64,000 nt of DNA from Takakia lepidozioides. Taxonomy: Eukaryota; Plantae; Bryophyta. Position numbers and translations under genes: made by a program. Under the pieces are notes generated by a model. It did no database searches, was not told where the DNA came from, and saw nothing but the letters and a program-made list of their open reading frames with translations. Where the stretch lies: positions 71,610,001 to 71,674,000 of the forward strand of contig CM060731.1 of NCBI GenBank assembly GCA_030704615.1. The letters are read 5' to 3'. Positions 34,201-64,000 of this stretch are shown here, piece by piece (position 1 is the first letter of the stretch; every line of letters begins with the position of its first letter).

Positions 34201-35205
34201 GTGCAGTGGGTGCAGTTTTTCTTCGAGGCCAACATACCATTTAATGTGGCAAGGCTTTCGGCATTTGTTTCTGCCGTTAGAGCAACCTCGGAGTCCAAAT
34301 CCACGTACGTGCCTCCGACTTATCACAATCTCCGCACAGGATTGCTAGAAGACGTCATGACCGAGCTTACCCAAAAGGTCAACGACAGGACGGACGAGTG
34401 CATCAGAAAATATGGAAGCACTATATATGCCGATGGTTGGAGTTCTGTTACAAACAGACCATTGTTCAATATCATGCTCGTATATCCAGCTGGGGAACAA
34501 TTCTTGGGATCAGTCGACACTAGCGGTGAGAAGAAAGATGGACATTATCAATGCTAACTATTGACGGACTTCATCGAACATGTTGGAAGTGATAAAATCG
34601 TGCAAATATGCACAGACAATGCCGCTACCATGAGAAACACAGCAGACATGTTGATGGCACGTTATCCCCATATGTACTATCAAGGTTGTATTGCTCATAT
34701 CATTGACCTCTTTTTGGAAGATTGGGGAAAAGAACAGTGGGTGAAACAACTTGTCAAGCGAGCGAAGACTGTTGTGTCATTCATCCGCACACACCACATC
34801 CCTTTGGCAATATATAGGAGGCACGAACCAAAATACAGCCTCCGCAATCCAGGCGAAACTTGTTTTGTCACTAACTTCTTGATGGTGGATCGGTTGGTGA
34901 CGGTGAAGAGCAGTCTGGAGCACACTATCATCGATCCTCAATGGGATGCGTACACACGGACATTGCGGGACTCCAGAAAAGCCAAGTCATTGGGCAAAAG
35001 TCGAAAAGTTCGGAATAACATTTGCAGCGATGATTTCTAGAAGAAATGTGAAAACTTTGTTTATATGGTAGAGCCGGTGTTAATCGTCTTGTGGTAGTTT
35101 GATGGAAAACAACCAGTAATGGGCAAGGCATGGTTACTAATGCAAAATCTTGAGAAGCACGTCCAATCCTTGAAGCATCATCCCTTCTCTTTGAAACCTG
35201 AACTT
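34201..35205 (+). mobile_element. hAT transposase fragment (DUF659-like), pseudogenised
   Basis: FFFEANIPFNVA, TIYADGWS, IVQICTDNA, CIAHIIDLFLED; frameshift at about 34558 and stop at 35040; 3' truncated. Confidence 0.85.
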
Positions 35206-37247
35206 GTCAAGGTTCATCATGTCGCGTATTGTCCCCCCATTCCACCAGCGAGTGTAACCCTCTATCTCACGTGCATTCACAGCAAAATATTAGATAACAC
35301 CCGGATGCTGGAACTTCACTGCCAAAAACTCGTCGTTATGTTGTTTCAACGCATTTTCTGGATTTTTGGACTTGGGTTTTTTTCCCGCTAGCTCCCAATG
35401 CTCCGGTATTCTAGAATCGCCAACAATCCTACACTGACGGACCTTAGCATATCCTCCTTCTTTGTAAGGGCCAATCTCTACCACCTTCGAAGTAGAGTTC
35501 AGGTAATAAAGACCAGTTGTACCTCCCCCGCCCAATGACCCCACCTTCCAAGCGGCAACCCTAGTCCGGCGATGTGAATTCTGACTTGCCGAGCAAGCCC
35601 AATACTCAACACGCCGCATTAACTCAATTTCGGCGGAGGGCACTCGACCCTCGGTTGTTCTACCCTTCCATGTCTTCATTAGCTGCCTCAAATTCCACGT
35701 GGCGTCTTTCGCCCTGCTTTGGATCCACCGATTGAACTTCGGCTTGTCCCTGTCCGCCGTCCACTTAACCCCCGCCAAAGTGTTTGTCATTTTCCTCTCC
35801 GTTGTTTTTTTGCAAAAACTACGAAGTCACCATCCACACACGTCCATTGCCGTTTTCTGAGGTTTTGTCCCATGTAGTGGGCAAATGTTTATACAATGTC
35901 AGGGGTTGTGAATTCAAGTTCTGGGGCGGGGTCGTCTAGGGGTCGGAGGAAGAGAAAACGTGCCCACGAGCGGATAGTCAGGTCAACAAGCCAGACTACC
36001 CGGGACCAGATGCCTTGGATAGGGTGAAAGAAGTGGTAATGGATTATTTCAAGGGTAGGGACATGATGAGGCTGAAGAGTGCTTATGTCAGGCATGGATA
36101 GGAGGGGTTTCAGATTTTCCAGCAAAGCCGCCGGAGATCCGAAAATGGCAAAATGGTGATACGATGATTGAACCGTGAACAAGGATGTGGGACTGACCAA
36201 GAGAAAACCGACTAACCCCCCCCCCCCCAAATGGCATTATGCTTGAAAATGAGTGACATACCAGTGACGCCTTGTCACGTGTCAGCGCGGCGCGACTGGC
36301 CAGTCGCCCCTCGCCACGCGCACCCACATGGAAGAGGTCAAGGGTTCAAAACCACCTCCTTCCATCCCATTTGTTTTGTTTTTCCTGACCCGTGGCACCT
36401 CGCCACGTGGCTGGCCAGGCGCCGCTTCATGATTTTTTTTTTTTAAAAACGCCACACGGCGGGTCCCTGGATTTCTAAAAATATATATACGCGACCGCCG
36501 CATGGCGGTCGCTATATTTATAAAAACAAGAAAAGCGACCGCCACATGGCGGTCGCTGTTTCAAAGATTCAAAATAAAAATAAGCGACCGCCGCTAAATG
36601 GCTGTTGCTTCATTTTTTAAAATATATTAACTAAGTGACCGCCAAACGGCGGTCGCTTAATTTAAGAATCAAAATCAAATCGAGCGACCGCCTCCAAATG
36701 GCGGTCAATGTATTCGCTAAATTTAAAAAAAAACTATAGCGACCGCCACATGGCGGTCGCTGTATTTTTACAAAATATATCAAAGATATAATAATAATAT
36801 AATAAAGTGCGAGCGACGCCAATCTGGGCGGTCGCTTCATTTAAAACATAATAAACTTCAACCGACCGCCAATATAGACGGTCGCTTATTTTAAAATATA
36901 ATAAAATACAAGCGACCGCCAATATGGGCGGTCGCTTAATTTAATAAAATATTAAATCACAAACGACCGCCAATATGGGCGGTTGCTTCATTTAAAAAAA
37001 TAAAAAAATATATGCGACCGCCAATATAGGCGGATGTATTTTTTTAAATGAATAAAAAATATTAATAATTGACCACGTCTGTTCTACACCGTGGCTGCCA
37101 TGTCATTACAAATGGTAAAAATAAATCTTAAAAGTCAAATGTAAAAAAGATTACATGGGTAAACGTCCGGATTCAACATGACGTAACGCACGTCGGACGT
37201 GACGGCCGACGTGTCAGCGCCACGTCACGTCAGGAATGATAACTAGG
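35205..37247 (-). mobile_element. Kinase-bearing repetitive element, copy 1 (truncated, with internal inversion)
   Basis: Highly similar to about 50155-52481; same end GTCACGTCAGGAATGATAACTAGG in a different flank. Confidence 0.75.
36490..37035. repeat. Array of about 11 palindromes AGCGACCGCC-N3-7-GGCGGTCGCT with AT-rich spacers
   Basis: Directly visible; period mostly about 45-55 bp. Confidence 0.92.
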
Positions 37248-38880: not shown

Positions 38881-38959
38881 CATTTTCAGACTTGTCAAAC
38901 TCTAGGGATGCCGAACAGGAGGGACCAGCAGGAATTCGGCCCTCTTTCATTTGAAAAAT

Positions 38960-41624: not shown

Positions 41625-41870
41625 TATATATATATTATATATATATATATATAAGGAAACATGGGAGCGACTACTCACAATTCAGGCCCTTGAGGAGGGG
41701 GAAAAATTAACCCCCTTTCAGATAAGCCATTAGGCGGTGGAAACGTCACCACCAGACCAACCGGTCATGAACGATCCACACACCAGGCAGGGCAGCGGGT
41801 TTGAACCCCGAACCACCAGGGTGACACATTGTGCACTTACCAGCTGAGCTACCAGCTGATGTGCACCTAT
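41625..41870 (-). mobile_element. tRNA-derived SINE
   Basis: Minus strand has A box TAGCTCAGCTGG, B box GGTTCAAACC and a (TA)n tail; 3' fragments recur at about 44480-44545 and 44718-44778. Confidence 0.72.
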
Positions 41871-42030
41871 TTTGAAAGAGGATGAAATGATATATTGAAG
41901 CCTTCCCTAAGCCATTTATAATAGGTCACAACAATAGCCTGAATTGTGGGCTGTTCCCTTAAAAAAAAAAAAAAAAAAAAAAAAAAACCCAATAGAAATA
42001 TTATACATCCAATTGTAAATCTTAGTCCCA

Positions 42031-43206
42031 CTAGAAATAAACAGTTGGGGGTAAACCCCTTGGCTCTTCTGTAAGTTGTGTGCGGCACACAGGGCAATGA
42101 CCATGTTTGGTCCATATCATTGTGGCGCATGGTAGACAAAGCCCTGCGTGATGGCATGGTACTAATAATGCCCGCAACCTCTCATCATTCTTCATCTCCA
42201 TAAAGCACACCATGCACTCAGTTGTTTGCGATGAAGAATGTCCTCCTATCATCCCATTTTGATTAGGCCCACGAGCTTGTAACTCCCAACGTAGTTGTTC
42301 CACCATTTGGTTTGCCTCTTCTATCTCTCTAAGTAATTCTGTCTTTGTTGCTGTGTAATTTTCAGATATCTCTTCCTTCTCTCTTTTGTTCTTTTCCAAA
42401 AGTTGTTGCACGGCCATGTGGTTTTTCCACTCCATGAAGTGCGAGTGTAAAGTGCTAGTGAGCCGCTTCCATTCAGAGGTTTGTTTCAGCAACCCATCCT
42501 TGACAGCCATTTGTTGCTGCAAAAGTACTTCCTTGGCTCTTCGATTGATTTCCAAAAACTCCTTGATTTCTTTATGATGTTTTTCTTGAAGGACTGTCTC
42601 AGACGTAAAATGGTTTTGACTAAGCTCTTTAAATTGTTTTTGAAGCTCAACGGCAAACAAACCGTACAACCGAATGCGCTCCATCGTCTCCAACTCTTTT
42701 CTTTGTAGCATCTTCATCTCTTCAGTCAAATCAACTTCGGTGGTGCCATACTGCAGCAAATGGATCAAACGCAAACGCTCAAGACAATCATCAACTAGGA
42801 AAGTAGAGCTCACTAACATTTGTTGTCGCATGATGGTCTCTTGCTCTGCACAACGATCCCGCATGTGTTGGATCTCTTTCATTTTTATTTCTACATTTTG
42901 TAAATAGTGTTTGGAAGCCTCTTCCACAACTTCGGTGGCACGCACTTGTTTTTGTAACTCTTGTCGGCTTTCATCATTACTCTTTATGAACCCTCCAATG
43001 CGATGTTCAAAAGGTGCAATCAAACGAGGATGTTTCGACGCCCTAAACGCCTCCAAATGTTGCCCTGTTGCATCCATCACTTGTTGGCGTTTGGCATATC
43101 CGGACCATGGGGGAATGGGAGTGGGAGAAGATGCAGGCATGCTCCCCACAAAGACATGATTTCCAGCGCACACCCTAGCGTCCCAAAAGGCTCTATGCCC
43201 ATGCAT
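42031..43206 (-). CDS. Intron-free coiled-coil protein with C-terminal RING-HC (zf-C3HC4_3-like), putative E3 ligase
   Basis: 391-aa ORF with long heptad-rich region and CMVC..LVPCHHAGLCLPC..CPVCR; start codon uncertain. Confidence 0.75.
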   Translation of the reverse strand: MHGHRAFWDARVCAGNHVFVGSMPASSPTPIPPWSGYAKRQQVMDATGQHLEAFRASKHPRLIAPFEHRIGGFIKSNDESRQELQKQVRATEVVEEASKHYLQNVEIKMKEIQHMRDRCAEQETIMRQQMLVSSTFLVDDCLERLRLIHLLQYGTTEVDLTEEMKMLQRKELETMERIRLYGLFAVELQKQFKELSQNHFTSETVLQEKHHKEIKEFLEINRRAKEVLLQQQMAVKDGLLKQTSEWKRLTSTLHSHFMEWKNHMAVQQLLEKNKREKEEISENYTATKTELLREIEEANQMVEQLRWELQARGPNQNGMIGGHSSSQTTECMVCFMEMKNDERLRALLVPCHHAGLCLPCATMIWTKHGHCPVCRTQLTEEPRGLPPTVYF

Positions 43207-43886
43207 ATTGTCTCACTATGATCGTTTTGCAATACTCTCACTATTGTACATTGCTGCAAGTATTACTTGTATATAATTTAGCATACATTGAAATTCCACT
43301 TACAATTAAAGTCTAATTCTCTATTGTCTCAAGTGAATATTTTGAGATGAAACTTCCAATGTTTGTAAGGCATATGAATCATTGTAAGGCTTCAATGTAC
43401 ATGCTTTTACAAGTTTTGTCATTCTTGCTACTCAGTGTATGCATCAATCAACCCAATTCTTTTGCTCACCAAATTTTTGTGTCGTTGTCTAGAAAGTGTA
43501 TGTCACATCTGTGAAATAATCACAATATTACAATTAAGGGTTGAAACTCAATATAATCAATATCTTGTTTCATAAATGTAGATAAGAGAATCTGCAATTT
43601 GTAAAGTTAGTATTTTTTTTTGTCACAATGATTCCTTTCATCTCCATCATGTTGGGGTCTTGCAATTTAATCTTGAACTATGTGGAGGAACATCAAGTCT
43701 TATTGTTTTGATATTTGTATCTAGACTTTTGAACGTAGAGTTAACTCCTCTCTGTCTCCCCACCCAAAACAACACCCCCCCCCCCCCCCGGCCCACCTAC
43801 CTCTTTCCCTTTGAGCTTCAAAGGAGGCACCCCTCCATTCCAAAGGTTGTCACCTTTTAAGCGAATTCCAATACCATTTGACTTTA

Positions 43887-44353
43887 CCGTAGTGGGATAG
43901 CCGGTTAGGCACTTGCCTGCCTAATAATTATTTTTTGGGCCATTTGGCAGTTAGGCACTTTTGAGATTTTTTTTAAAAATTAGGCATCTTGGATGTGTAA
44001 TTTTTCAAATTAGGCAACTAAAAATAATGATCACAAAATGAAAACACAAAAATATAAATCTACAGCCGCTGCCATGGATGAAAATTGAAAACTGAGTCCA
44101 TGGATGACGTTTAAAATAAATATCATTTTCAATGGATATCATTTTTAGATTTATTTTTCTATTATAGATTTTTTTTTTAAAATTTAAATTCAAGTTTTGA
44201 TACCATAGGCACTTTTAGAGAAATTTTTGAAAATTAGGCACTGTTTAAAGATAAATATTTTTTAAATTAGGCACTCTTGTCAAAAATAATTTATTTTGAT
44301 TAGGCACTTTTTTTTTCAAATTAATTTCTGCCTAACCGGCTATCCCACTACGG
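43887..44353. mobile_element. Tc1/mariner (Stowaway-like) MITE
   Basis: Perfect 25-bp TIR CCGTAGTGGGATAGCCGGTTAGGCA, TA target duplication, internal TTAGGCA repeats. Confidence 0.88.
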
Positions 44354-45158
44354 TATGTTGCATAGCTAATGCCTTTCAAGATTGGATCGCATTAAATATA
44401 TTTTAAATATCTTATATAATAATATTTTATGGAATCTTATTAGTCATGATATCTTATATTGGTTTTGAATTTTAGTTTGAAGGGGGTTAATTGTTAATTC
44501 CCGCCCTCAACAAGGCCCAATAGTCATGGCTCGGTTTCCTTGCAAAATTAGATAAAAAAATTAATAATGAAGATATCTAATAATAAGTGTTGTGTTGTGT
44601 TGTATTGCCAGGACGCCAGGATAGGCTTATCATTGAAGTCCAAATCTATATAATATCTTTTATAATGGAGAGAAATAAATTTATTTACTTAAATCAAGTT
44701 TTTTTTTTGGTTTGTTTAAAAAAGAAACATGGGGAGCGACTGCTCACAAGGAGGGGGAAAAATTAACCCCCTTTCAGTTATATATTAAATAAATTGAGAA
44801 AACAATGTATGTCAGGCTCTACCATTTTTTATTTTTTTATTTTGTAGAAAGGGTGGAGCCCTAACAATTGAGCAAAGAAAAGGCTATATCATTTATGCAG
44901 GTAAGGGATAAATTCACACTTTCTAGTTAAAATTTTGTATTTTTACTGTGAAAAGATTCTTTATAACTATAGTCGACCCTTTTTGAAATGTTATGCATGA
45001 AGAAAAACTGGCCTTTTTTTATCGTGATTATAATTATGAATAAATGCTATAGATAATTGATTGTCCTAGCAACATACCACTCATTTTGATTTAACAAACA
45101 TTTTGAAAACAAAGGATTAGTGAATTGAGGTTTTTTGTTTAATGTATCATTAGCTAGA

Positions 45159-46585: not shown

Positions 46586-47550
46586 GTGTACAGACGAACA
46601 GATGTTGAGCAACGGACCTGGGACGGGTATTACGAGTGTTGGTTCAAGAATGATGTTCTCTTCAACGGTCATAGCATGAGCAACCACACGACATACATCA
46701 AAATCGACGGCGGGACCCCCCTGCAGACCCCTCGGGGCCTCTCTCTTGAACATAAATTACTAATAGGACTGATCTTACCGGGCACAACGATTCTCTTCCT
46801 CAGCGTGGGGTTGTGGACTGTAGGGTGTTTTACCATCATTCAAAAATCAAGAAGCCTTCGAATCAAAAGGCTGGAGAAGAAATGGACTGCGTCAAGAGGC
46901 CTGAATATAGATTTCACGTATGATGAGATTCGACTGGCAACGCGAGACTTTGCGGAGGAGATCCGGAAAGGGGGCTACGGGTCCGTGTTCAAGGGAGAGA
47001 TCGGACAGCTAGCCGTCGTGGCCGTGAAACGACTGGAGAAGTTGGGTACTGCTGGAGAGAGAGGATTTGTGAACGAGGTCGACACAATTGGACGCATTCA
47101 TCACGTCAATTTGGTGCAACTCCACGGCTTCTACGCCACAGCTGGTCACAAATTGTTAGTGTACGAGTACGTGGAGAACAACTCCCTTGACAAAACTCTC
47201 TTCCGCAGAGATCAGAAGTCAGATGCGCCTATCCTGGAGTGGAGGTCCCGCTTCAAGATTGCCATCCAAACAGTGCGGGGCCTGACGTTTTTGCACGAGG
47301 ACGTGCCAGGCCAGCGCATCATCCACTGCGATATCAAGCCGGAGAACATTCTGCTCGACTCCACGATGTCCGCCAAAGTGGCAGACTTTGGGCTTTCACG
47401 GATCCTGAATCGGGAGCAGACGCGCACCATGACGACGCACATTCGTGGCACCTCCGGCTACTTGGCTCCCGAGTGGACCTCCGACCACATGCCCATCACC
47501 ACCAAAATTGACGTCTACAGCTAGCTACGGTATGGTGCTGCTCGAGATTG
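46586..47550 (+). pseudogene. S-domain receptor kinase, middle piece (PAN end, TM, kinase subdomains I-IX)
   Basis: CWFK, TM helix, GGYGSVFKG, VAVKRL, IIHCDIKPENILLD, DFGLS, GYLAPEW, DVYS then 4-bp insertion then YGMVLLEI. Confidence 0.88.
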
Positions 47551-48300
47551 AAAGGCTGCAAAGGGTAATCTCCATACGGATAGTCGAAGTTAACTATCCC
47601 AGTCATATGCAGATTGTTGTCGACAGTAGTGTTATTGACGTTGCAAAGAGTGCTAATGGCCTTCGTCCGTGTGCACCCTTGAGATGGATCATTAGCATCG
47701 ACAAACTGAAATCCCCTCAGGACAGAAGCATTGATTAGAGCTGCAATATCCAAAGGGACCGCAAACGCCGGACACGAAGCAGATGTCTGAAAGAGCTTGC
47801 CATTCGACACTCCATGCTTTGGAGCTCCCATTAGTAACCCAACTATAGATGCGTAAATTGCCATAGGAGTCAAACGTTACTCGGCGCAACCGACCTGTCA
47901 AGGTACCCGTGTCATTGCTATTTCCAAGCACACTCGAGCTATTTCCGAACACATTGTTTGCTAGAAACTGACCCTCTGTTGTCAAAACGACGTATGAGAC
48001 GCCTTGCGTTGACAAGGGATTCTGGATAATTGGGCTAAACCAGGTACGCGGAGACGTCCAGTAAGCGATAAGGCTGCCGCTGAACCAAATAAGTGAGTAT
48101 CTACTTTGCGTCCAGCTGTCACGTTTCTGCCATGCGACCATGGCCGTCATATTGGTAAAATAATGCTGGCCCGGCAAGAGAGTGTCAGTGGGCTTGTCGA
48201 AGCTTTGCCACACGGTCTGGTTGAGTCCGTTGAGAAGGACAAAGTTTCCAGTTTCAAGCATGGCGGCGATGGTCACATTCGACTGCAAATTGCACAATTT
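47551..48300 (-). pseudogene. S-domain receptor kinase ectodomain (B-lectin end, S-locus glycoprotein, EGF, PAN start)
   Basis: MLETGNFVL, VWQSFDKPTDTLLPGQ, GNLRIYSW, CFVSGVCGPFGYC..CFCPEG; one frameshift near 47712. Confidence 0.88.
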
Positions 48301-48681
48301 CAGATCGTCATTGTCTGATTTACACTCGAAATGCTTGAAAAACTAGAGGATAACATATATATTTACCGATAACTGCTTGAAATATATAATTCCTATGAGA
48401 CCATGAAGATCTAGGGTAATCCTATATACTCTCCCGTCTGCTTCCAATATAACGATTTATAAGTATCATTGTCCAGCGGATCTACGATTTTTCACGTCAA
48501 CAAGCTATCTCAAGACACATTTGTATAGCAATCTGACGCGTCCATGAGACAACTTGTCCATGTATTTTCACGTGCCAGCATGCATCAAATGACTACTTAG
48601 TTTGATCACATGTATGCATTTTGACTTTCACATCTTGTGGCTACCTAGACTTAGAGGGACCTAAGCGCCAGCTAGGGGGCG

Positions 48682-49410
48682 ATTGTGATGGACTAGTGGC
48701 AGCCTAGTGATGGACTAGTGGTTGCACTAGTGGTGGCTAGTAGCAGCCTAGTGGTGGACTAGTGGTGACTAGTGGTTGTCTAGTGGCAGCCTAGTGGTGC
48801 ACTAGTGGTGCACTAGTGATAGTCTAGTGTTTGGTGTGCACATGTGTTGTGTGGTTTTGGACAACGATGTAGTTGTGTAGCGATATATATGCGCACGACA
48901 GCTGTCAAGTTATTTTACCACTAGTGTGAAATTAGCTAGGAAATAGCTAGCTTTTATATATTGACATTTGGGATTGACCCAAGTGTCAATCTAGGGGCCA
49001 ATACATGTTTGGGCACCTGGCGTTGTTATCTTCACGGCAGATCGCGGTGGGCTCATCTTTATCGAGTTGAGCCTCACCGCGTCTGGCTATGGCGCCGTAG
49101 TGTGGATTCCCCATGGCGTGGGGTGCACTTGGCTCGATTTAATATATGAGTGATGTTTTCATATTGTGATGGACTAGTGGTTGCACTAGTGGTGGCTAGT
49201 GGCAGCCTAGTGGTGGACTGGTGGCGGTGGTGGCTAGTGGTGGCTAGTGGTGGACTAGTGGCTGCACTAGTGGTGACTAGTGGTTGTCTAGTGGAAGCCT
49301 AGTGGTGCACTAGTGGTGGACTAGTAATAGACTAGTGTTTGGTGTGCACATGTGTTGTGTAGTTTTGGACAACGATGTAGTTGTGTAGCGATATGTATGT
49401 GCACAACATG
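48682..49410. repeat. Two copies of a CTAGTGG-based minisatellite block (48682-48900, 49163-49410)
   Basis: About 11-bp units (G/C)ACTAGTGGTG; both blocks end in the same unique tail GGTGTGCACATGTGTTGTG..GCGATAT. Confidence 0.85.
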
Positions 49411-49519
49411 TAGTATTTACAATGGGACTTTATTTATTACATGCACGATCAAAATTGAGTTCTGTCTTCATAAAAGAACCATTGTACCGCCACAAATCTC
49501 ATATCTACGAGACTATGGT

Positions 49520-50976
49520 CTACTCCGTCCTATATATGTCTTTAGGCTCAGGCCAATTGAATGGCTTGCCCATGAACCAAAGTACTACATGGGCTAATGT
49601 GACTCTCATTTTTGTTGTTGTCATACAACCTTTGTAGCATTGAATGCCAACAACCTTCCGTAAATTGGTCCTCGATCATACTTTGATCATAATGAGTGTT
49701 GCCATTTATTCATACCGCTATCTTCCCAACGGCAAAGGCCTCTGACGTCATGTCCTGGGGGGGGGGGGGGGGGGTGGGCATTCGCATTGAAAATCGATGT
49801 AATATTTTTTTCTATCCACCATCTTTTCGCGAGTTCCTGGTCCAGCTTGTCTTGGTTTTCAAACTGGTACGACGAGGCTTTGCGTATGCCCAATGGGGTG
49901 GCCAAGCCCCAATCACACACCCCAATCTTGATCTCCTCGGTGCCATCTGGAAAATGCAACAAGATGTTGTTGGGGGACAAGTCGTTGTGCAGGATACCGT
50001 TCTTGTGGACAACATCCATGATGCACACCAGTGCTCATGCAAGTTTACTGTGCACTTTCCGGAAACGAAGCAAGCGATCGCATTCCTGGAACTCTGCTTC
50101 CATTCCCCTTTGTTCCAAAATCACCCTGTTGTCTGAATCGTTGCCTCATTTTCTGTCAAGGTTCATCATGTCGCATATTGTCCCCTCATTCCACCAGCGA
50201 GTGTAACCCTCTACCTCACGTGCATTCAAAATATGAGATAACACCCGGATGCTGGAACTTCAATGTCAAACACTCGTCGTTATGTTGTCTCAACACCTTT
50301 TCTGGATTTTTGGACTTGGGTTTTTTTCCCGCTAGCTCCCAACGCTCCAGTATTCTAAAATCGCAATCCTACACTTACGGACCTTAGCATACCCTCCTTT
50401 TTTGTAAGGGCCAATCTCTACCACCTTCGCAGTAGAGTTCAGGTAATAAAGACCAGTTGTGCCTCCCCCGCCCGATGACCCCGACTTCCAAGGGACAACC
50501 CTAGTCCGGCGATGTGAATTCTGACTTGCCGAGCAAGCCCAATACTCAACACGCCGCATTAACTCAGCTTCGGCGGAGGGCACTCGACCCTTGGTTGTTC
50601 TACCCTTCCATGTTTTCATTAGCTGCCTCAAATTCCACGTGGCGTCTTTCGCCCTGCTTTGGATCCACCGATTGAAATTCGGCTTGTCCCTGTCCGCCGT
50701 CCACTTAACCCCCGCCAAAGTGTTTGTCATTTTCCTCTCCATATTTTGCTGGAAAATCTGAAACCCCTCCCATCCATGCCTGACATAAGCACTCTCCAGC
50801 CTCATCATGTCCCTACCCTTGAAATAATCCACTACCACTTCTTTCACCCTATCCAAGGCATCCGGTCCCGGGTAGTCTGGCTTGTTGACCTGGCTATCCC
50901 GCTCGTGGGCACGTTTTCTCTTCCTCCGAACCCCAGACAACCCCGCCCCAGAACTTGAACTCACAACCCCCGACAT
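49520..50976 (-). pseudogene. Atypical non-RD protein kinase-like ORF of the repeated element (copy 2, full length but frameshifted)
   Basis: GGYAKV glycine loop, LAGKK, HPGVI, LHNDLSPNNILLHF, VCDWGLA, SEAFAVGKIA, RVTLAHV; several indels and stops. Confidence 0.8.
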
Positions 50977-51510
50977 TGTATAAACCTTTGCCCACTACAG
51001 GGGACAAAACCATAGAAAACGGCAATGGACGGTGTTTCTACAAAAAAACAGGCCGTCGGAGATCCGAAAACGGATAAATGGTGATACGATGATTAAACCG
51101 TGAACAGGGGTGTGGGACTGACCAATAGAAAAACGACAACCCCCCCTTCCCCCCCCCCTCCCAAATAATCATCTTTGCACCTCCCGTTGGCAGTGCCAAA
51201 CAACGACGTCCGAAAGGACTACATGATGCCAAGGAACCGCACCACGAGAGGGGCAAAAGTGATCAGAAAAATAAGGGGGAATGGTTTATATAGGCGCCCA
51301 CCAGCCCCACCCCCCCCCCAAAATGGCATTATGCTTGAAAAGGAGCGATAGGCCAGTCGCACCTCGTCACGCGCACCCACATGGGAGAGGTCAAGGGTTC
51401 AAAACCGCCTCCCCCCATCCCATTTGTTTCGTTTTTCCTGACCCGTGGCACCTCGCCACGTGGCTGGCCGGGCGCCACTTCATGAATTAAAAAAAAAAAA
51501 AAAAAAAACA

Positions 51511-52285
51511 CGCGACCGCCGCATGGCGGTCACTATATTTATAAAAACAAGAAGAGCGACCGCCACATGGCGGTCGCTGCTTTTTTTTAAAATATATTAA
51601 ATAAGCGACTGCCTACTAGCGGTCGTTTAATTGAAGATTCAAAATAAAAATAAGCGACCGCCGCTAAATGGTGGTCGCTTCATTTTAAAAAAAATATTAA
51701 GGAAGTGACCGCCAAACGGCGGTCGCTTAATTTAACAATCAAAATCAAATCGAGCGACCGCCTCCAAATGGCGGTCGCTTAATTTAACAATCAAAATCAA
51801 ATCGAGCGACCGCCTCCAAATGGCGGTCGCTGCATTTTTCAAAATTTTACTGGCGGTCGCTTTATTTAAGAATAAAAATAAAAATAAGCGACCGCTACTA
51901 AATGGCAGTCGCTAAATTTAAAAAAAAACTATAGCGACCGCCACATGGCGGTCGCAATATTTTTACAAAATATATCAAAGATATAATAATAATAAAATAA
52001 TAAAGTGCGAGTGACCGCCAATCTGGGCGGTCGCTTTATTTAAAACATAATAAACTTCAACCGACCCCCAATATAGGCGGTCGCTTATTTTAAAATATAA
52101 TAAAATACAAACGACCGCCAATATGGGCGATCGCTTCATTTAAAAATTATTAAATTACCGGCAACCGCCAATATATGCGGTCGCTTAATTTAACAAAATA
52201 TTAAATCACAAGCGACCGCCAATATGGGCGGTTGCTTCATTTAAAAAATAAAAAATAAAATGCGACCGCCAATATAGGTAGATGT
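51511..52285. repeat. Array of about 15-16 palindromes AGCGACCGCC-N-GGCGGTCGCT with AT-rich spacers (copy 2)
   Basis: Directly visible; spacers colinear with 36490-37035 apart from unit gains and losses. Confidence 0.92.
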
Positions 52286-52481
52286 ATTTTTTTTAAAGGA
52301 ATTAATAAATATTAATAATTGGTCACGTCTGTTTTACACCGTGGATGTCATGTCATTACAAAGGATAGAAGTAAATCGTAAAAGTCAAATGTAAAAAAAA
52401 TTACATGGGTAAACGTCCGGATTCGACGTGACGTAACGGCCGACGTGTCAGCGCCACGTCACGTCAGGAATGATAACTAGG

Positions 52482-55400
52482 CAGCAATCACTGAAGGCGA
52501 TTTCAACAAGGTTCAGATTTTTGGGTCGTCTTTTGGTCCATGGTATATCAAACCCCGTTCTATTCATTGGTGGGATCAATTTGCAGAGACTGTGATGAGA
52601 GAAGATGAAGAGAGATTTCGGAAAATGCTTAGAGTGACAGTATCCACATTTGATTATCTGTGTGATATTCTTGGCAATGACCTCTTGCGAAATCCGCCTG
52701 CTAGTTTGCAAAACATCAAAGGCAGAAAACTGTCAATTGCCAAACAAGTAGCATTATGTCTATGAAGATTTGCAACAGGGGATTCTTTTCTTACTATAGG
52801 GGAAATGTTTGATGTGGCTGAATCCACCGCCAGCAAAATTGTGCACAGATTCACCAAGGCCATAATCAAAAGAGCCTACCACCACCTGCAGTGGCCTGAC
52901 CAGGATGTCATTTGTTTTGTGACAGCTGGCTTTGAAAAAGCACATGGTATTCCACAATGTTGTGGAGCTATGGATTGCACCCACATCTTGTTTGACCTAC
53001 CAGACAATCAAAGAAGAACTGTTTGGTTTGATATGAATCTTAATTATTCAATGATTGCACAAGCAATTGTCGACTCCAACATGCGTTTTCTGGATGTATT
53101 TGCTGGCATCCTTGGCTCGGTCCATGACTCTCATGTGTTGACGAGGTCTGATTTCTACTTCCAAGTCGAACGTGGCCAACGGTTGAATGGTCCATTGCGC
53201 CTCAAATAGTCCTACAGAATTTATTTTCCAGCTCCTACTCAAGTACATTACTTGCTACATTTTCTATGTGTTTCATCAGTAGGGCAATGAATATCCGGCC
53301 CCTGTGACACACACACATGCATAAGCTTAATATTTGACCCACACACAAGGATTGCCCACATCTCTTGGCAATGGTACAGCACCAGCCCCACAAGGCCCAC
53401 CTCAAGTCCATTTCATATGGGAATGTATTAGTCATGATGCATGGAATAAAGTACAGTACCAACAACTTTATGAAAGGGCCTCCTGACTGAGCAATGTGCA
53501 AATGTATAGTTCAATTGTGCAATGCATATGCCAAGGCCAAAATTCCACACACTCATAAAGATGGCACATCATCTACAACATATTGGGAATTCATACACAC
53601 ATGTGCCATGATGAGCATTGTACACCATCAAGGCACACTGTACCGCATGAAGGTATTATATACTATGATCAGAATGACAATCCCGAGTCATAAGGAGGGT
53701 CCAGCATATATGGGAATCATCCACACATGATGTTGAGCATTATATATCATCAAGGCACACTATATGAAGGCACTGTACTATACTTTGATTTGAAGATAGT
53801 ACTATAGAGATTATAAAGAAGGCACATTGTACAAGGGAAAGTATAGTACCTGCAAGTTTGTTTAGGTAGCTCATGAAAAGAGCAATGTACAACTACTTTA
53901 CCTATTGTGCAAAGCCTATGCCACGGATCACAAATTTCACACACGCCTGAGTCATAAAGAGGGTAGTGTATTGTACTATAACATGAAGACAGTACTATAC
54001 ATATTGTAATCAAGGCACACAGTACAAGATGAAGTCTAGTACCTGCAAGTTTGTTTATGTAGCTCATGAATAGAGCAATGTACAAGTACTTTACCTATTG
54101 TGCAAAGCATATGCCAGGGGCCAACTTTCACACACTTCTGAGTCATAAGGAGGGCAGAATCTCCATCATATTGGGGAATTATATGAAGGCAGTGTACTAT
54201 ACTATGCCACTATATAATATAAGCACACTGTATAATGTGATGTATTTATAATGTTAATGTGAGTCCACTGGCAAACCTGCTGGTTTGCTGTCAATTTGGC
54301 CATTGTCGAGTCATTGAGGTGCCAATACTCTTCAATCCCTCACCAATGTTCATTAGGGCTGTAATGTATCCAACTCCAATATCTCTGGTTGCTTGTATCC
54401 GTTCTCTTTCAAGTTCCAATGATTCTCGGTGGCGTACATTTTCCTGTTCTTGTGCAATTTGCATTTGTCCAAACAATTTTTCTCTATTCGTCTCCAATAT
54501 GTTTGTCAAGCTCTGCACCACGTTCGAAGAAACTCTTCGCCGTTTTGCAGTGGTTGGGCTGTCAGACTTATCACCGCCATCGTCAAATGAAGAGTCCCCA
54601 CCTATTATGCCAACAAGAATTAGATTGAATTCAAACAAGCACATGTACAAATCCAACAAATGTTGTGTATATGATGAGTTTTTACCTGGCCTGGGCATGG
54701 TGAAAGTATCAATAGGCCCATCATCTAGCTCAACAGCTTTGGATCCTTTGACATACCAGTCGCCCAATGCATTGAAGACCTCCAGTTGCATTATGACTTT
54801 TGGGAGTTTTGCATCTTTCCTCTCTTGGGGAATCATATGGAAATAAGATTTTTTTCCACTTGGAATTCTTCTTTCATAATCCCATATCTTCCGAAAATCT
54901 GCAAAGAGGTTTTCCCACTTGTCTTGACACTGTTGTGCACTTCGATTGACATTGTGTTCGATTCATGTATCTTCCACAATGGACCATCTCTGTGCTGCAG
55001 TATGGTGCAATGTCTTCGAGCCAGATCCAGGACCATGCTTCACCCAATCTGTACGCTTTGCTGCTTGCAAGACCATGACCTCGCTCACGGTCCATGGACC
55101 TTTTTTGTAAGTGCGACCAGGAATATTACTTTGTTGGGCACCAAACTCTGTGCTTGAGTTATCTAAATGAGAATACACATCCTCTGGTTCTTGCCCAAAA
55201 CTCTCTTCAAGAAAAGCTTGCATTGTTGCTACGCACTACTCTTCGAAACTCAAAAAAAACTATGGCGGCAGAAGACTCTCTGTGCATATTTGACGCGAAA
55301 AGTGTCGATGAGGGTAAGTTGTTCAGCAAGTCATGGCATGAAAATAACGGGCTACTGTAAGACACCAATGGAGAACGGGACCCGTACGCCCAACACCTCA

Positions 55401-55550: not shown

Positions 55551-56289
55551 TAAGTCCCAGCCCTATACACTGCGACCTAGCAACCCTAAATTCGAGGCAA
55601 CTTTTGAACATTTTGACCGTTTTACACCCCAACATTATATAAATTAATTATATATTCCAAGTAATTATGTGATTTATTTTTTTATATATTTTTTGCTGAA
55701 CAGGGAGAGACCTTGGTAGGATTTTATTAGAATTATTGAAGGGAAAAAATTTAAAACCCTTGATGCCCTCAGGCTGCCATAAGGCTTACACTCACGGCGG
55801 ACCGTGACGGATATCACGACGAACGATAACATGTGAATTATTTAATTTAAAAATACCTTCACATAACTACATGGAATATATAATAGATTCTGAACATGAA
55901 CATGAAGCTCATGATCATTTTCCGAGGGCCATATTGGTTCATAGTTTATTCTGTTTGCAGAGCAGTACTCACACTCCCCATACACCACAATCTGGAAATT
56001 CTTTGTTCCCATTTTACACAGGTTTGTAACATTCTATGTAAACTACGCCAACCCCTGGCACGCTCATGGTTGTTTTGACACCGTTCTTGCCTGGGGTGTG
56101 GTGAACATGTGGGACACCCCACACTTAGGCCATATTTTGACCCACACCTTGGCTCAATCCACAGAGCCGCGAGAAAAGCCGTGGAATGTGACAGGTGTGA
56201 GACCCCCATACCGTGGAAAAAACCGATTTCCGGCGCAACCTAAAAATCTCTTTTATAGATGAGGATGAGATCGACATTCAGCCCGACTG

Positions 56290-56600
56290 GTACTACCCTT
56301 TACTAGGATTGAAACTGGAGCACTCCTGGAGGTCGTCGATCCGTTGCTGAGCGGGATCGTGGACACCACGGAGGTCGAACGGGCGTTGCTAGTGGCCTTC
56401 TGGTGCATCAATGAGAAGCCTGAGCGAAGGCCTACCATGACGATGGTTGTGAATATGCTGGTAGGCCACATCACTATCGAGTATCCAGTGCCGCGACCCA
56501 AATTTTTCGATGACATGCCCACTACTAGCATCAAAAGCCACGCTCAGAATCAGAGCCTAAATTGGATGATCCGCTGTACACCAGTTCGTCCGCTTCAGCT
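56290..56600 (+). pseudogene. Receptor kinase C-terminal piece (subdomains X-XI)
   Basis: LLEVVDPLL..EVERALLVAFWCINEKPERRPTMTMVVNMLVG..PVPRP. Confidence 0.8.
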
Positions 56601-57145
56601 TCACATCAATTGTCTTCCAACTCTTCGTACAGAGGTAGACAGTAGAGGTGTCGCGGAGTAGAAGTACTATAGGGTCCCAATTAGAACTATTGAATTAATA
56701 TTCTACTGGAAATTCCGTCAGTAGGAAATGTTGGTAGCTGTGATATCATACGAAACTGGCCCACCTGTACATTGACCTGTGCGTCTGGGGTTCAAACCCC
56801 TATAAGTTGTCTCTCTCAGCTTCAGGGCTGGCCAGTTTGCCTTCATGGCCTCCTTAAGGAGGTTTACTGTGCCCTGCGAACTTTATTTGGGATTATTAGG
56901 AGGAAAAATACATATACATATACATAGTTCATCCATCCAAAGTTAACCCAAAACCCTGACGCCGTGGAGTTTGTAAGGGAAAGACGATGGTTGATTTATA
57001 CAAGTGATGCTGAGCTTGGAAGCTCTGTTTCGTGTACGTCTCTGGGTGTATATGTGCACATTCACATGGCAAGAGCACTTCGTTGTGTGGGTTTCAGCCT
57101 TCCTGTTTCAATTCAAGAAGGTTGATTCTCTTTGGTTTTTCCAGC

Positions 57146-59116
57146 ATGGCGAGAGGTCGCCACAGCGAGTCAGAAGATGAAGAAGAGGACGGTAGGGGGA
57201 AGCATCGCTCCAGCAGCAAGAAGCATCGGAGTAAGCATCATTCGGAGAAGAGGAACAAGGGGGAGAAAGGGAGGCATAAGCGGAGAAGGGAAATGAGCTC
57301 AGAGAGCGAGGCCTCCTCCGACCGGAGTGCGAGCCGTAGCCCCCCTAGGGTTTCTCAAGACGATCTCCGAGAGTACATGGCGAGGAAAGCTCAGAGGAAA
57401 GCTGTGAAAGTGGCCAAAAGGTTGAAGACATCCACCGTTTCAGGGTATTCGAACGACAGTAATCCATTTGGGGACTCGAATCTCACAGAAAAGTTTGTAT
57501 GGAGGAAGAAGATCGAGCGAGACCTTACACAGGGTCTGGACCCTGCGGAGCTGTCTTTGAAATCCGAGAAGAAGCGGCAGAAGGAGCGAATGGCTGAGAT
57601 TGAGAAGGTGAAGAAGCGGAGGGAGGAGCGAGCAATTGAGAAAGCGCAGCATGAAGAAGAGATGGCAATGCTTGCGCGAGAGAGAGCAAGGGCTGAGTTT
57701 CACGACTGGGAAAAGAAGGAAGAGGAGTTTCACTTTGAACAAAGCAAGGTGCGGTCAGAAATCCGCCTGCGTGAGGGCCGAGCAAAGCCCATCGATGTGC
57801 TGTCGAAAAATCTGAACCTATCTGAGGACTTCGACATTGAGATAAACGAGCCATACAGGATATACAAGGGTTTGACTGTGAAGGAGATGGAAGAGCTGCG
57901 CCTTGACATCAAAATGCACCTGGAACTCGACCGCGCAACACCCACCCATATTGAATTCTGGGAAGCGATGATGGTGGTATGCGATTGGGAGATTGCAGAG
58001 GCCCGCAAGCGAGACGCACTCGACCGAGCGCGAGTGCGAGGCGAGGAGCCCTCGTCTGAGCTGCTGGCTGATGATCTGGGCTTGCATGGTGTGGATGACG
58101 ATGTACACAGAATGCTTCAGGGGCAGAGTGTAGCAGAGCTGGATAATCTGCAAGAGCAGACGGAGGCCAAAATGCGCAGCGGCACTGCGCAGGTGGTGGA
58201 GTACTGGGAGGCGGTACTCAAGCGCCTGCACATCTACAAAGCTAAGGCACGGCTCAGAGAAATCCATGCAGACTTGCTACGGCAGCATCTACAGCGTCTC
58301 CAGGATTCGGAGGAAGGCGAGCGACGTGTTCTGCACGATGATCTTGAAGTTGAGCGGAACGTCGATCACATGGAGAGTGATTCAGAAGATGTAGAACCAT
58401 TGTCACCAGAACTCGCAGGCACTGCAGAGAAGCCCAAAGAGGCTGAGGAAGAGGCAGGATCCTTTTCTCCTGAGCTGGTGCACGACTCTGATGCCTCTGA
58501 TGTCATGGACCCTGACGTGGACAGGGCTGATCTGGAACAGAAGCGGGCTGAGGTTATGGAGGAGCAGCAGCGGAGGATGCAAGAAGCGGCGGCCAGGCCC
58601 AGTGCTACTGAGGATGATGGTCTGGACCTCACTGCACCAGAGCGAGCCCTAGTGCTCAAGGCTGTGGGTGGCATGGAGGATGGAGACGCCATTCTTGGGG
58701 CAGGGGCCGAGGTGAATCTTGAATCACAAGTATATTGGTGGCATGACAAATATCGACCAAGGAAGCCAAAATACTTCAACAGGGTCCATACTGGCTACGA
58801 GTGGAACAAGTACAATCAGACCCACTACGACCATGACAATCCTCCTCCCAAGATTGTGCAAGGCTACAAGTTCAATATCTTTTACCCAGATCTTGTTGAT
58901 AAGACAAAGGCGCCCACTTATTGCATTGAGAGGGATGGTAGTAATGGGGAGACTTGCTTGATCCGCTTCCATGCTGGGCCTCCTTATGAGGACATTGCTT
59001 TTCGGATTGTGAACAAGGAGTGGGAGTATTCTCATAAAAAGGGGTTCAAGTGCACTTTTGAGCGGGGCATCTTGCATGTCTACTTCAATTTCAAGCGGTA
59101 CAGGTACCGCAGGTGA
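57146..59116 (+). CDS. CACTIN: Cactin (spliceosomal factor), single coding exon
   Basis: Uninterrupted 656-aa frame from ATG 57146; GYSNDSNPFGDSNL, cactin mid domain, C-terminal KYRPRKPKYFNRVHTGYEWNKYNQTHYD..FHAGPPYEDIAF..FKRYRYRR. Confidence 0.96.
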   Translation: MARGRHSESEDEEEDGRGKHRSSSKKHRSKHHSEKRNKGEKGRHKRRREMSSESEASSDRSASRSPPRVSQDDLREYMARKAQRKAVKVAKRLKTSTVSGYSNDSNPFGDSNLTEKFVWRKKIERDLTQGLDPAELSLKSEKKRQKERMAEIEKVKKRREERAIEKAQHEEEMAMLARERARAEFHDWEKKEEEFHFEQSKVRSEIRLREGRAKPIDVLSKNLNLSEDFDIEINEPYRIYKGLTVKEMEELRLDIKMHLELDRATPTHIEFWEAMMVVCDWEIAEARKRDALDRARVRGEEPSSELLADDLGLHGVDDDVHRMLQGQSVAELDNLQEQTEAKMRSGTAQVVEYWEAVLKRLHIYKAKARLREIHADLLRQHLQRLQDSEEGERRVLHDDLEVERNVDHMESDSEDVEPLSPELAGTAEKPKEAEEEAGSFSPELVHDSDASDVMDPDVDRADLEQKRAEVMEEQQRRMQEAAARPSATEDDGLDLTAPERALVLKAVGGMEDGDAILGAGAEVNLESQVYWWHDKYRPRKPKYFNRVHTGYEWNKYNQTHYDHDNPPPKIVQGYKFNIFYPDLVDKTKAPTYCIERDGSNGETCLIRFHAGPPYEDIAFRIVNKEWEYSHKKGFKCTFERGILHVYFNFKRYRYRR

Positions 59117-61414: not shown

Positions 61415-61840
61415 TCACCAGCCACACCCCACCTCAGAGTGATGAAAGCTACATCCGGTTAACAATTGCTTGTCCTCAAGATTTCTGATAAACTTGATGG
61501 GGGAGTGGCAGTTGTTCCACACCTGAAGGTCCTTGATGATGTGGATAGAAGTCCCAGGAGGCAATCGCAAGCTTCTCACTGTGGAGGCAAAGAGGGGTTC
61601 CTTTTGTTCCTCCAAATTGTGCAATACACAGGCACATACCCAGCCTCCCTCATCTGCCTGAACAACCTGTGCTAATCAGCATGGATTTCCTGAAATTTGT
61701 GGATGCACTTGTCCTCAACAAACAATCTATGCATCCTGTTGGCATCCTTAACGCAGCTGCACCCTGGCTCCTTTCTGGCACCTCTGTACTTCGCTTTATT
61801 GTCTGACCTGCCATCAGCAGCACAAATCTTTGATAGCAGG
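61415..61840 (-). pseudogene. Orphan E+/DYW domain relic
   Basis: RKEPGCS, QMREAGYVP, LCLHSEKLAIA, IHIIKDLQVWNNCH, FHH. Confidence 0.75.
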
Positions 61841-62489
61841 ACATGAGCTCAATCATAATAAGACATTCGAGGCACATACTGTTGTCTCTTTCTGTCTTGG
61901 CAGAGATTTTCCCCATCAAGGACCTGAAGTGCCTGGCAGCCTACCTGCAGGAGGAACTTCGTCAGTTGGTACTTTCTGAAGTGATTTCTGGTTCTACTTT
62001 GTCCCATGGGCCCTCAAGGTTTAGAAGTTTCTTTCATATGTCTCTCTCTCTGCGTCGCATCCCTGGCCATCCTGTGGGGACTATCAATTTCTTACTTTCT
62101 CTCTCTGTTTAATTTAAAGCAAGGCTACGGCAAACAACGTCTTATGAGTACAATCTGTTCAATTTAAAGTACCATTTCATTTCATTCTCTCTGTTTAATT
62201 TATATACTGCCCGGCGTCAGCCCCTGACAAAGGTAGTTTCTGTCCCTTTGTGTTCCACTCAAAGTGGGCGCGGGGTCAATGACCACAAGGCTATGTCAAA
62301 CGTCTTATGAGTACATTCCGTTTAATTTACAGCATAAGAGAAGCAGATGCTCACAGAAAGAACAGTACTGACAGCAAAGTAATGACACATTGTTACTTTC
62401 CTCCTGTTCTTTCTTTCCAGGAATAAGGACAAATTCCAAAATTTCTCACACTTTAATTGGCACACTGTCTTGCATGCATGTTGCTTGGT

Positions 62490-64000
62490 TCACCAGTAAT
62501 CACCACATGAACAAACTCCTTCGTTGAAATGGTGGAAGCGGTTGGCATCCTGTACAACAACAGCCCTCCTAACAATCTTCACGATGAACTTGGTGGCAGT
62601 ATGGGAGTCACCACACACACAAAGGTTCTTGATGATGCGGATAAGTATCCTGGGGGGCGGGGGGTGCTAATGAGCCCAAAAAAATGGCCTGCTTCTCATG
62701 GTGGTCGCTGGTTTTTTTCGCTCCTCCTTACAAATCATGCAACACAAAGCACATGTCAGGCACACTGGCCTTCTTCATCTGCCATCTTTCTTTAGTTCAT
62801 CATGAATTTCCTCGATTTGTGGGTGCGACGAGTGTACAAATGTGTGCACCCAGCTGCAGACCTCAATGCGCCTGTAGCCTACTTCCTTTGTGACACCTCT
62901 TTCTTTCCACCTTTGCTTTATCTGGCCACCTGTCAGCTGCAGCGTAGATGTTTGATAGCAGCACATACGCTCGTGGATACCTCTTGACAATGCATTTTGC
63001 CACACATTCTGCTAGGACCACATTGCCATGAATTCTGCAGGCACCAAGCAAGGCTCCCCACACTGAAGCATCTGGTTCTATTGGCATTGTGTTAATGAAG
63101 TCCTCTGCCTCATCCAATCGCCCTGCGCGACCAAGAAGGTCCACCATGCAGCCGAAATGCTCCAATGTGGGGGTGAGGCCATAATCTTTCCTCATGGAAT
63201 CAAAGTAATGACAACCTTCATCAACCAGGCCCGCATGGCTACAAGCAGAGAGAACAGATATGAAGGTGATACTGTCTGGTTTGAAGCCTTTGCATTGCAT
63301 TTGTTGAAATATTTGGAGAACATCCCTACCACACCCATGCTGGCCATACCCTGCGATCATCACACTCCATGAGACTACATCTCGCACAGACATACTGTCA
63401 AACACTTGACGTGCATCCACTACGCTCCCACATTTAGCATACATGTCAACAAGAGTATTTTCCAAATCAATGTATGAGGGAATTCCGGCCTTGATGACAT
63501 CAGCATGGACCTCTTTGCCCTTTTCCAGGGCTCCTAGGCTGGCACATGCATTGAGAGCACAAATGAATGTGACAATGTTGGGTGTCACTCCTTCTCTCTG
63601 CATTTGCTCATAACACTTGAAAGCCTCTCTACCACATCCATGCTTGACATATCCTGTGATCATTGCACTCCATGACACCACATTTCGTTTAGCCATATTG
63701 TCGAACACTTGACGAGCATCATTCATGCTCGCACACTTAGCATACATGTCGACAAGGGTATTCTCCAATTTTATACAGGACAAAATTCCAGCTTTGATAA
63801 TGTCAGCATGGACTTCTTTGCCCTTTTCCAGGGCTCCTAGGCTAGCACAGGCATTGAGAATGCAAATGAAAGTAACCCGGTTGGGTGTCACCCCTTCCAA
63901 TTTCATCTGCTCATAGATCTTGAAAGCCTCCATACCGCACCCATGCTGAGCATACCCTTGGATCATCACACTCCATGAGACCACATCTTGTTTAACCATA
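62490..64000 (-). pseudogene. PLS-E-DYW PPR gene, PPR tract open but frameshifted before and within the DYW domain (5' end outside window)
   Basis: 378-aa open PLS+E region; downstream pieces IRIIKNLCVCGDSHTATKFI..DANRFHHFNEGVCSCGDYW*. Confidence 0.88.

What the first reader, a model, noticed from the sequence alone, without database searches (positions are those of the whole stretch)
51511..52285. CRISPR-like repeat-spacer array in a plant genome
Seen: about 15-16 GC-rich palindromes (AGCGACCGCC-loop-GGCGGTCGCT, about 24-28 bp) separated by distinct, almost pure A/T spacers of mostly 20-30 bp, at roughly 50-bp period. Loop sequences change along the array (GCAT/ACAT, AAAC, TCCAAAT, then AATATG), giving it polarity. 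No cas genes are present. Inference: phased dimeric protein-binding sites (transposase or replication initiator, as in CACTA-style subterminal repeats or iterons) or a multi-hairpin RNA upstream of the kinase.
Basis: partly seen in the sequence, partly recalled or inferred. Interest (0 to 1): 0.75.

Follow-up and report, generated by a model that had tools for sequence, protein, structure and literature searches.

The report
Kinase transposon's end repeats, not CRISPR
The palindrome array is not a CRISPR-like memory: it is an inherited repeat block just inside one end of a repeated plant mobile element that carries a broken gene of a kinase family for which I found no description, and it likely serves as a row of binding sites for the proteins that move or switch on that element.

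Summary
The array is real: 14 full palindromes and 2 half-sites at about 50-bp period. The 'spacers' are not distinct. They resemble each other, two are identical, and a second array at 36.5 kb repeats them in order at 94% identity, as high as the arms. Both arrays lie in copies of one element: broken kinase gene, TATA box, array, then 211 bp to a sharp end (…CTAGG, 52481). Beyond that end, 19 contigs of one public run have unrelated flanks. This copy interrupts a Harbinger transposase gene. Both copies lack the other end, so target-site duplication and superfamily could not be fixed; canonical Helitron insertion rules were not met. The kinase belongs to an unnamed, likely streptophyte family with conserved catalytic motifs and a helical N-terminal domain with no clear structural match. 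Relatives at 27% identity have a different, 21-bp repeat block in the same position, in likely head-to-tail units of about 3.2 kb. Best reading: subterminal protein-binding repeats of a kinase-carrying DNA transposon; binding itself is inferred. CRISPR-like reading rejected. Interest is modest and lies in the kinase cargo.

The parts
51511..52270 (.). Array A: 14 palindromic units and 2 half-sites with homologous A/T spacers
52271..52481 (.). Terminal 211 bp of the element, rich in ACGT motifs, ending ...GATAACTAGG at 52481
   Evidence: shared with copy B up to this base; unrelated flanks behind 52481 in 19 and 12 contigs of two runs of one sample and in 1 contig of another organism; 7 ACGT in 197 bp against 0.4 per 200 bp window-wide
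52425..52465 (+). Possible terminal hairpin, 11 nt before CTAG
   Evidence: DNA folding; its 5' arm differs in copy B and in other copies (loose ends at 52430-52442)
51285..51293 (-). TATA-like box facing the kinase gene
   Evidence: CTATATAAA on the minus strand, also present after the repeat block in L001-L004; function inferred
49529..50976 (-). Broken gene for a helical N-terminal domain plus protein kinase
   Evidence: in-frame stops and a frameshifted stretch; Pkinase match; extent by tblastn; family
49408..49528 (.). Leftmost surviving part of copy A; other copies continue differently left of 49408
   Evidence: loose ends before 49408 in 7 and 11 contigs with shared letters that are absent from the window
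52482..53209 (+). Broken PIF/Harbinger transposase gene interrupted by the element (target, not part of the element)
   Evidence: DDE_Tnp_4; other Harbinger copies carry different letters before 52485
54291..54962 (-). Myb/SANT-like gene, the usual partner of that Harbinger element
   Evidence: Myb_DNA-bind_4; partner role from established knowledge
35205..37247 (.). Copy B of the element: part of the kinase gene, a 290-bp internal inversion, array B and the same end
   Evidence: 88-95% identity in blocks; alignment A1
36490..37022 (.). Array B: 10 units and 1 half-site, same order, lacking some units of array A
34201..35204 (+). hAT-type transposase fragment (DUF659) abutting copy B; membership in the element not shown

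Best explanation
The array is an inherited repeat block 211 bp inside one sharply defined end of a repeated, kinase-carrying mobile element, and it likely acts as a row of paired binding sites for the transposase or an accessory DNA-binding protein supplied by an autonomous partner. Shown: the element context, the end at 52481, the insertion into a Harbinger gene, the shared ancestry of the spacers, and gain or loss of whole units between two copies. Inferred: each half-site (about AAA-NNN-AGCGACCGCC) is one protein footprint; head-to-head pairs bind dimers; the A/T linkers of 24-25 bp set the distance; slippage or unequal exchange changes the unit number. The class of element is open: I put a cut-and-paste element with terminal inverted repeats at about 0.45, a rolling-circle (Helitron-like or other HUH) element at about 0.35, and others at 0.2. 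This copy is dead and decaying, likely by methylation-driven C-to-T change.
For: Two copies share kinase piece, array and end, then diverge at once. In public contigs, summed depth falls from 30,412 at 52465-52479 to 241 at 52495-52509 in run X2 (not a copy number), and 19 (X2) and 12 (X3, same sample) contigs leave at 52481 into unrelated flanks, agreement 0.40 and 0.42; one contig of another organism does the same. Three Harbinger contigs in each of X2 and X3, and two in X5, carry other letters before 52485, so the element interrupts that gene. Spacers match each other and match between copies. Half-sites of both orientations carry an A-tract 4-7 bp outside the arm (88-100% A at three positions for 25 right halves; 42-84% for 26 left halves). 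The distance across the linker is 34-35 bp in 9 of 13 intervals while loops vary from 4 to 7. 19 of 31 arm deviations are C>T or G>A. Precedent for subterminal repeats bound cooperatively as a quasi-palindrome with A/T-rich flanks: Hermes (PMC10368747, passages).
Against: No binding was tested and no cognate protein was found. The other end is missing from both copies, so terminal inverted repeats and a target-site duplication were not seen. Arms are no better conserved between copies than spacers or flanking element DNA (93.6%, 93.8%, 91%), so two copies show no selection on the motif. The array also lies 220 bp upstream of the kinase TATA box, so a promoter role fits the position equally well. 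The block starts 211 bp from the tip, further in than the densest Hermes sites. The 50-bp period is not a whole number of helical turns.
Confidence: 0.6

Rival explanations
1. The array is a promoter-proximal or anti-silencing target block, as in Arabidopsis VANDAL elements: an element-encoded protein, possibly the kinase protein itself, would be recruited to it to keep the element and its kinase gene active.
For: Order array - TATA - kinase is kept in relatives at 27% protein identity that have a different repeat, 21 bp and direct (L001-L004). VANC targets form tandem repeats that differ between related elements (PMC5735166, abstract and passages). Catalytic positions are kept across the family. 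The array is CpG-rich (observed/expected 2.1-2.2 against 0.5 window-wide).
Against: No expression or methylation data. The N-terminal domain resembles no known DNA-binding fold above background. The CG(A/T)CCGC likeness between the two repeat types arises in 9-15% of shuffles. The position upstream of the gene is also the position next to the element end.
Confidence: 0.17
2. The array is a neutral minisatellite that grew by slippage from one palindrome and is carried passively by the element.
For: Exact 52-bp duplication (units 6-7), unit loss in copy B, Tandem Repeats Finder periods of 50-52; no excess conservation of arms between two copies; no compensatory pairs. Internal tandem repeats are common in non-autonomous rolling-circle elements (PMC4067079, passages).
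Against: Within the array, arms stay near-identical across units while loops and linkers have diverged, which uniform drift would not give. A repeat block sits at the same place in a distant family.
Confidence: 0.17
3. The array works as folded single-stranded nucleic acid: hairpin RNA feeding small RNAs, or DNA hairpins read by a rolling-circle enzyme.
For: It folds far better than shuffles (z = -26), as any palindrome array must. A hairpin and CTAG lie at the end. Relatives assemble as circular or head-to-tail units.
Against: 0 of 240 arm pairs show double compensatory change; of 35 single changes 22 break the pair. None of 78 Rfam matches reaches its gathering score. The array lies upstream of the TATA-like box, outside the predicted kinase transcript.
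Confidence: 0.05
4. A CRISPR-like array that acquires foreign spacers.
For: Superficial layout only: palindromic repeats of 24-27 bp at a near-regular period.
Against: Spacers are homologous to each other, oriented alike and inherited between copies. No cas family among 20 window ORFs or pieces scanned. No CRISPR family among the Rfam matches.
Confidence: 0.01

Closest known systems
Subterminal repeats of cut-and-paste transposons: Hermes hAT STRs (PMC10368747, passages read); En/Spm TnpA sites and Harbinger Myb sites (recalled, no call)
   Same: Short repeated motifs in inverted pairs near an element end, flanked by A/T-rich DNA.
   Different: Here the units are long (10-bp arms), regular (about 50 bp) and start 211 bp from the tip; the terminus reads CCTAG inward, not the CA/TA of hAT or the CACTA/G of En/Spm (those consensus ends are recalled); the only gene seen is a kinase.
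Helitron-like elements HLE1 and HLE2 (PMC11417382, passages; PMC4067079, passages)
   Same: Hairpin about 11 nt before CTAG at one end; internal tandem repeats; gene cargo; relatives in head-to-tail or circular units.
   Different: A G follows CTAG in all copies seen, flanks show no T preference, the inferred target in paralogous Harbinger copies is T^C rather than A^T or T^T, and no RepHel gene was found.
VANDAL/VANC anti-silencing systems of Arabidopsis (PMC5735166, abstract and passages)
   Same: An element with an extra gene and a family-specific tandem repeat block in non-coding DNA that differs between related families.
   Different: The extra gene here is a kinase, not VANC; no binding or demethylation is shown; the element is not shown to be a Mutator.
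Replitrons (PMC10288648, passages; 7 supplementary text files searched)
   Same: High-copy elements of non-seed plants with one precise end and a hairpin.
   Different: No Rep gene and no direct terminal repeat seen; the array and end motifs were not found in the supplements held; the figure showing termini could not be seen.

Membership tests
CRISPR array | Spacers unrelated to each other | tested here: not met
   Mean pair score 0.288 against 0.133 +/- 0.015, 0 of 2000 shuffles; two spacers identical
CRISPR array | Spacers differ between loci through acquisition at one end | tested here: not met
   244 of 260 aligned spacer letters identical between arrays A and B; differences are loss or gain of internal units
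CRISPR array | cas genes nearby | tested here: not met
   No cas family in Pfam scans of 20 window ORFs or pieces; not every ORF of the window was scanned
Mobile element (any class) | Dispersed copies with a sharp boundary and unrelated flanks | tested here: met
   Two window copies; 19 and 12 contigs leave at 52481 with agreement about 0.4
Mobile element (any class) | Empty site exists | tested here: met
   Paralogous Harbinger contigs lack the element before 52485; these are paralogues, not the orthologous allele
Helitron HLE1 | Hairpin followed by CTRR at the 3' end | tested here: inconclusive
   Hairpin 11 nt before CTAG, but a further G is shared by all copies and the 5' arm varies
Helitron HLE1 | Insertion between A and T | tested here: not met
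   First flank letters are C (copy A), G (copy B), G (X8), consensus A (X2, X3); the letter before the inferred site is T
Helitron HLE1 | 5' end begins with TC; RepHel gene in autonomous copies | not testable with these tools
Helitron HLE2 / Helentron | Insertion in TT, T-runs at termini | tested here: not met
   No T after 52481 in either window copy or in the flank consensus
hAT | Terminal inverted repeats and 8-bp target-site duplication | not testable with these tools
   Other end missing; no inverted copy of the end motif within 2 mismatches in the window
hAT | hAT transposase inside the element | tested here: inconclusive
   A DUF659 fragment abuts copy B only; copy A has none; whether the junction recurs in other copies was not examined
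CACTA / En-Spm | Terminus CACTA or CACTG (recalled), 3-bp duplication | tested here: not met
   The terminus reads CCTAG inward; the duplication could not be tested
PIF/Harbinger | Array is part of the neighbouring Harbinger element | tested here: not met
   The array-bearing element interrupts the Harbinger gene, and copy B has the array with no Harbinger
Replitron | Rep (Y1) gene and short direct terminal repeats | not testable with these tools
   Only one end available; no Rep ORF among those scanned
Eukaryotic-type protein kinase | Kinase fold with Lys, Glu, HxD..N and DxG residues | tested here: met
   Fold matches for homologue P0019; in alignment A3, K in 21 of 22, E in 21 of 22, HND and N in 21 of 21 rows that cover the loop, DW in 21 of 21; the window copy misses K and E in the frame read because of its frameshift
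VANC-type anti-silencing system | Element-encoded protein binds the repeat and removes silencing | not testable with these tools
   Needs binding and methylation data

The most novel reading that the evidence does not exclude
A widespread lineage of early-land-plant mobile elements carries its own active protein kinase with an unassigned helical domain, paired with a family-specific repeat array beside the element end and the kinase promoter. Kinase and array form a self-targeting module: the kinase is brought to the array and phosphorylates chromatin or the transposition machinery to keep its own family active, a phosphorylation-based counterpart of VANC. Some relatives would also amplify as head-to-tail 3.2-kb units.
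Probability: 0.12. Interest if true: 0.8.

Novelty: new variant of a known kind. Interest (0 to 1): 0.3.

Why it matters
As a repeat array it is ordinary: repeat blocks near transposon ends are well known, and this closes the CRISPR-in-a-plant lead. What is worth keeping is the cargo. A family of kinases with conserved catalytic residues at 24-31% identity seems to ride on mobile elements; the members I looked up came only from metagenome and read assemblies, with at most generic names. If such elements use a kinase and a cognate array to control their own activity, that would add a new route to the few known transposon counter-silencing systems, and a moss model would make it testable.

Tried and rejected
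No whole genome is held for this window, so full-length copies, the left end and target-site duplications could not be read. The end motif (21 letters) had 0 matches in metagenome contigs. The palindrome had 26 matches in prokaryotic genomes and 22 in viral contigs; all 48 are single units with no second unit within 600 bp. No kinase relative in viral or prokaryotic contigs. No fused longer form among proteins of 1134-3235 aa (weak evidence, and lengths between 752 and 1133 aa were not covered). The N-terminal domain folded confidently (pLDDT 89) but gave best Z 5.0 and no Foldseek match at E 0.001 and no Pfam family; absence of a match is not evidence of a new fold. No RNA holder listed. The letters that other copies carry left of 49408 and before the Harbinger break are not in the window. 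The idea that the array is the Harbinger's own subterminal region was rejected. The idea that the end is a hAT-type TAG terminus with GG from the target was rejected, because GG is shared by all copies and absent from the paralogous empty sites. A shared CG(A/T)CCGC core with the distant family's repeat is not significant. Joints that skip parts of the array in other contigs were laid at 85% likeness with short sides and are weak. The second ORF of L004 has 76 unnamed relatives, no Pfam family and no match in the window. Paper searches found no description of such a kinase-carrying element; subscription journals, Repbase and Dfam were not searchable, and a recalled paper on Crinkler-type kinases was not held. 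Earlier findings by sequence gave nothing. The prokaryotic promoter scan does not apply to a plant.

Full report
Observation. Between 51511 and 52270 there are 14 full palindromes (10-bp arms, loops of 4-7 nt) and 2 lone half-sites, separated by 15 A/T-rich linkers. Allowing 2 mismatches per arm, the unit occurs 23 times in the window, all in this array or in a second one at 36490-37022; 2 of 1000 shuffles of the array region gave any unit. The feature is real.

The spacers are not spacers. Linkers 5 and 6 are identical, inside an exact 52-bp duplication. The 14 linkers of 19-26 nt (the 53-nt one was left out) score 0.288 per pair against 0.133 +/- 0.015 for shuffles, with 0 of 2000 reaching the observed value, and 0.054 against their reverse complements, so they share ancestry and direction. 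Array B has the same units in the same order, minus some internal ones. In aligned columns, linkers are 244 of 260 identical, arms 204 of 218, loops 54 of 54, and flanking element DNA about 91%. No cas family turned up in 20 window ORFs or pieces, and none of 78 weak Rfam matches reaches its gathering score or is a CRISPR family. The 48 exact matches of the palindrome in prokaryotic and viral collections are all single units. The CRISPR-like reading fails.

The element. Both arrays sit in copies of one repeat: part or all of a minus-strand kinase gene, about 500 bp of upstream DNA, the array, and about 211 bp ending in GATAACTAGG. Public contigs place the end at 52481. Summed depth in run X2 drops from 30,412 to 241 across it (a contrast, not a copy number). 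19 contigs of X2 and 12 of X3 (one sample) run on into unrelated flanks, a further 4, 5 and 1 contigs leave one base later, and a 930-letter contig of a second organism ends its match at the same base. Right of the end lies a broken PIF/Harbinger transposase gene with its Myb partner. Other Harbinger contigs have different letters before 52485, which by eye are free of stops in the transposase frame, so copy A is an insertion into that gene. These are paralogues, not the same locus. On the left, copy A breaks off at 49408 against another high-copy repeat, where other copies continue with shared letters that the window lacks. Copy B breaks off inside the kinase gene against a hAT transposase fragment.

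Which class. A hairpin lies 11 nt before CTAG, the HLE1 pattern described in PMC11417382 (passages). Against it, a G follows in all copies, flanks do not begin with T, the inferred target is T^C, and the hairpin's 5' arm varies between copies. HLE2 needs TT targets, also not met. Read inward the end is CCTAG, which is neither the hAT nor the CACTA consensus as I recall them. Replitron termini could not be compared (figure not held; no hit in 7 supplementary text files). I leave the class open, slightly favouring a cut-and-paste element.

The cargo. The kinase gene has in-frame stops and a frameshift. Its relatives number 60 clusters at E 1e-10 or better among 50%-identity representatives. The ten looked up came from Logan, ENA or JGI assemblies with at most generic names, and the nearest Atlas cluster for homologue P0019 is eukaryotic, mostly Streptophyta. 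Earlier notes on this genome call it a likely moss (not checked by me). Catalytic residues are kept across rows that are 23-50% identical to the first, and the model of P0019 matches protein kinases. The N-terminal 120 residues fold as a helical domain with no clear match.

Distant relatives. Six metagenome loci encode kinases about 27% identical to ours (38% for the short L006). L001 has a 128-nt terminal overlap giving a 3174-bp unit, L002 is a permutation of it, and L003 begins and ends in the same repeat, so these are head-to-tail or circular units; assembly alone cannot tell which. L001-L004 have a GC-rich 20-21-bp direct repeat upstream of a TATA-like box and the kinase gene, the same order as in the window. 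All six belong to one family (over 80% DNA identity), so this is one independent comparison. The likeness of their CGTCCGC core to our CGACCGC is within chance (9-15% of shuffles).

Mechanism. Both half-site orientations carry an A-tract just outside the arm, and the distance across the linker is 34-35 bp in 9 of 13 intervals while the loop varies. No arm pair shows a compensatory double change (0 of 240), and most deviations are C>T or G>A. This fits double-stranded protein-binding sites decaying under methylation better than a selected hairpin, although dead copies give the test little power. Hermes offers a precedent for cooperative binding to a quasi-palindromic subterminal pair with A/T-rich flanks (PMC10368747, passages). 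I therefore read the array as subterminal binding sites for the transposase or an accessory protein of an unseen autonomous partner (0.6). Rivals are a promoter or anti-silencing block as in VANDAL/VANC (PMC5735166, abstract and passages; 0.17), a neutral minisatellite (0.17), folded RNA or DNA (0.05) and CRISPR-like acquisition (0.01). Against my reading: no binder is identified, arms are not better conserved than linkers between the two copies, and the period is not a whole number of turns.

Novelty. Repeat blocks at transposon ends are a known kind. I found no paper on this element or its kinase family in searches, but subscription journals, Repbase and Dfam were out of reach and supplements of moss genome papers were not seen, so it may already be catalogued as an unclassified repeat. 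Verdict: new variant of a known kind, interest 0.3. The boldest reading not excluded, a kinase-plus-array self-activation module, has probability about 0.12.

Noticed in passing
L001:1-3302, L002, L003: Distant kinase relatives assemble as about 3.17-kb circular or head-to-tail units; the unit junction holds TACTGCCAGAAAA, which resembles a CACTG-type terminus (recalled consensus). Another family member, P0170, also sits on a 3174-bp contig.
   Followed up: partly
L004:3282-3860 and 4119-4420: A second, convergent ORF of an unnamed family with 76 relatives and an 83-bp tandem repeat follow the kinase; possibly the far end of a longer element.
   Followed up: partly
window 46586-48342 and 56269-56661: An S-domain receptor kinase gene is split: middle part on the plus strand, lectin part inverted beside it, and a C-terminal-like piece about 9 kb away beyond the nested elements.
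   Followed up: no
window 48672-49408: Two pieces of a very high-copy repeat built on an 11-bp CTAGTGG unit; summed depth more than ten times that of the kinase element.
   Followed up: no
window 43885-44355: MITE-like element with perfect 27-bp inverted ends including TA and an internal TTAGGCAC repeat at 33-bp period.
   Followed up: partly
window 41648-44780: An open 393-aa coiled-coil plus RING frame lies between two short direct repeats about 3.06 kb apart.
   Followed up: no
window 57014-59116: Cactin encoded in one uninterrupted 700-aa frame.
   Followed up: no
window 35836-36126: A 290-bp segment of the kinase gene is inverted in copy B relative to copy A.
   Followed up: no
window 7402-8408: Long inverted repeat of about 390 bp around a copia-like fragment.
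   Followed up: no
window 27100-33000, 38600-38900, 61600-64000: Several degenerate PPR-like gene remnants with about 300-bp periodicity; family name recalled from the motif, not scanned.
   Followed up: no
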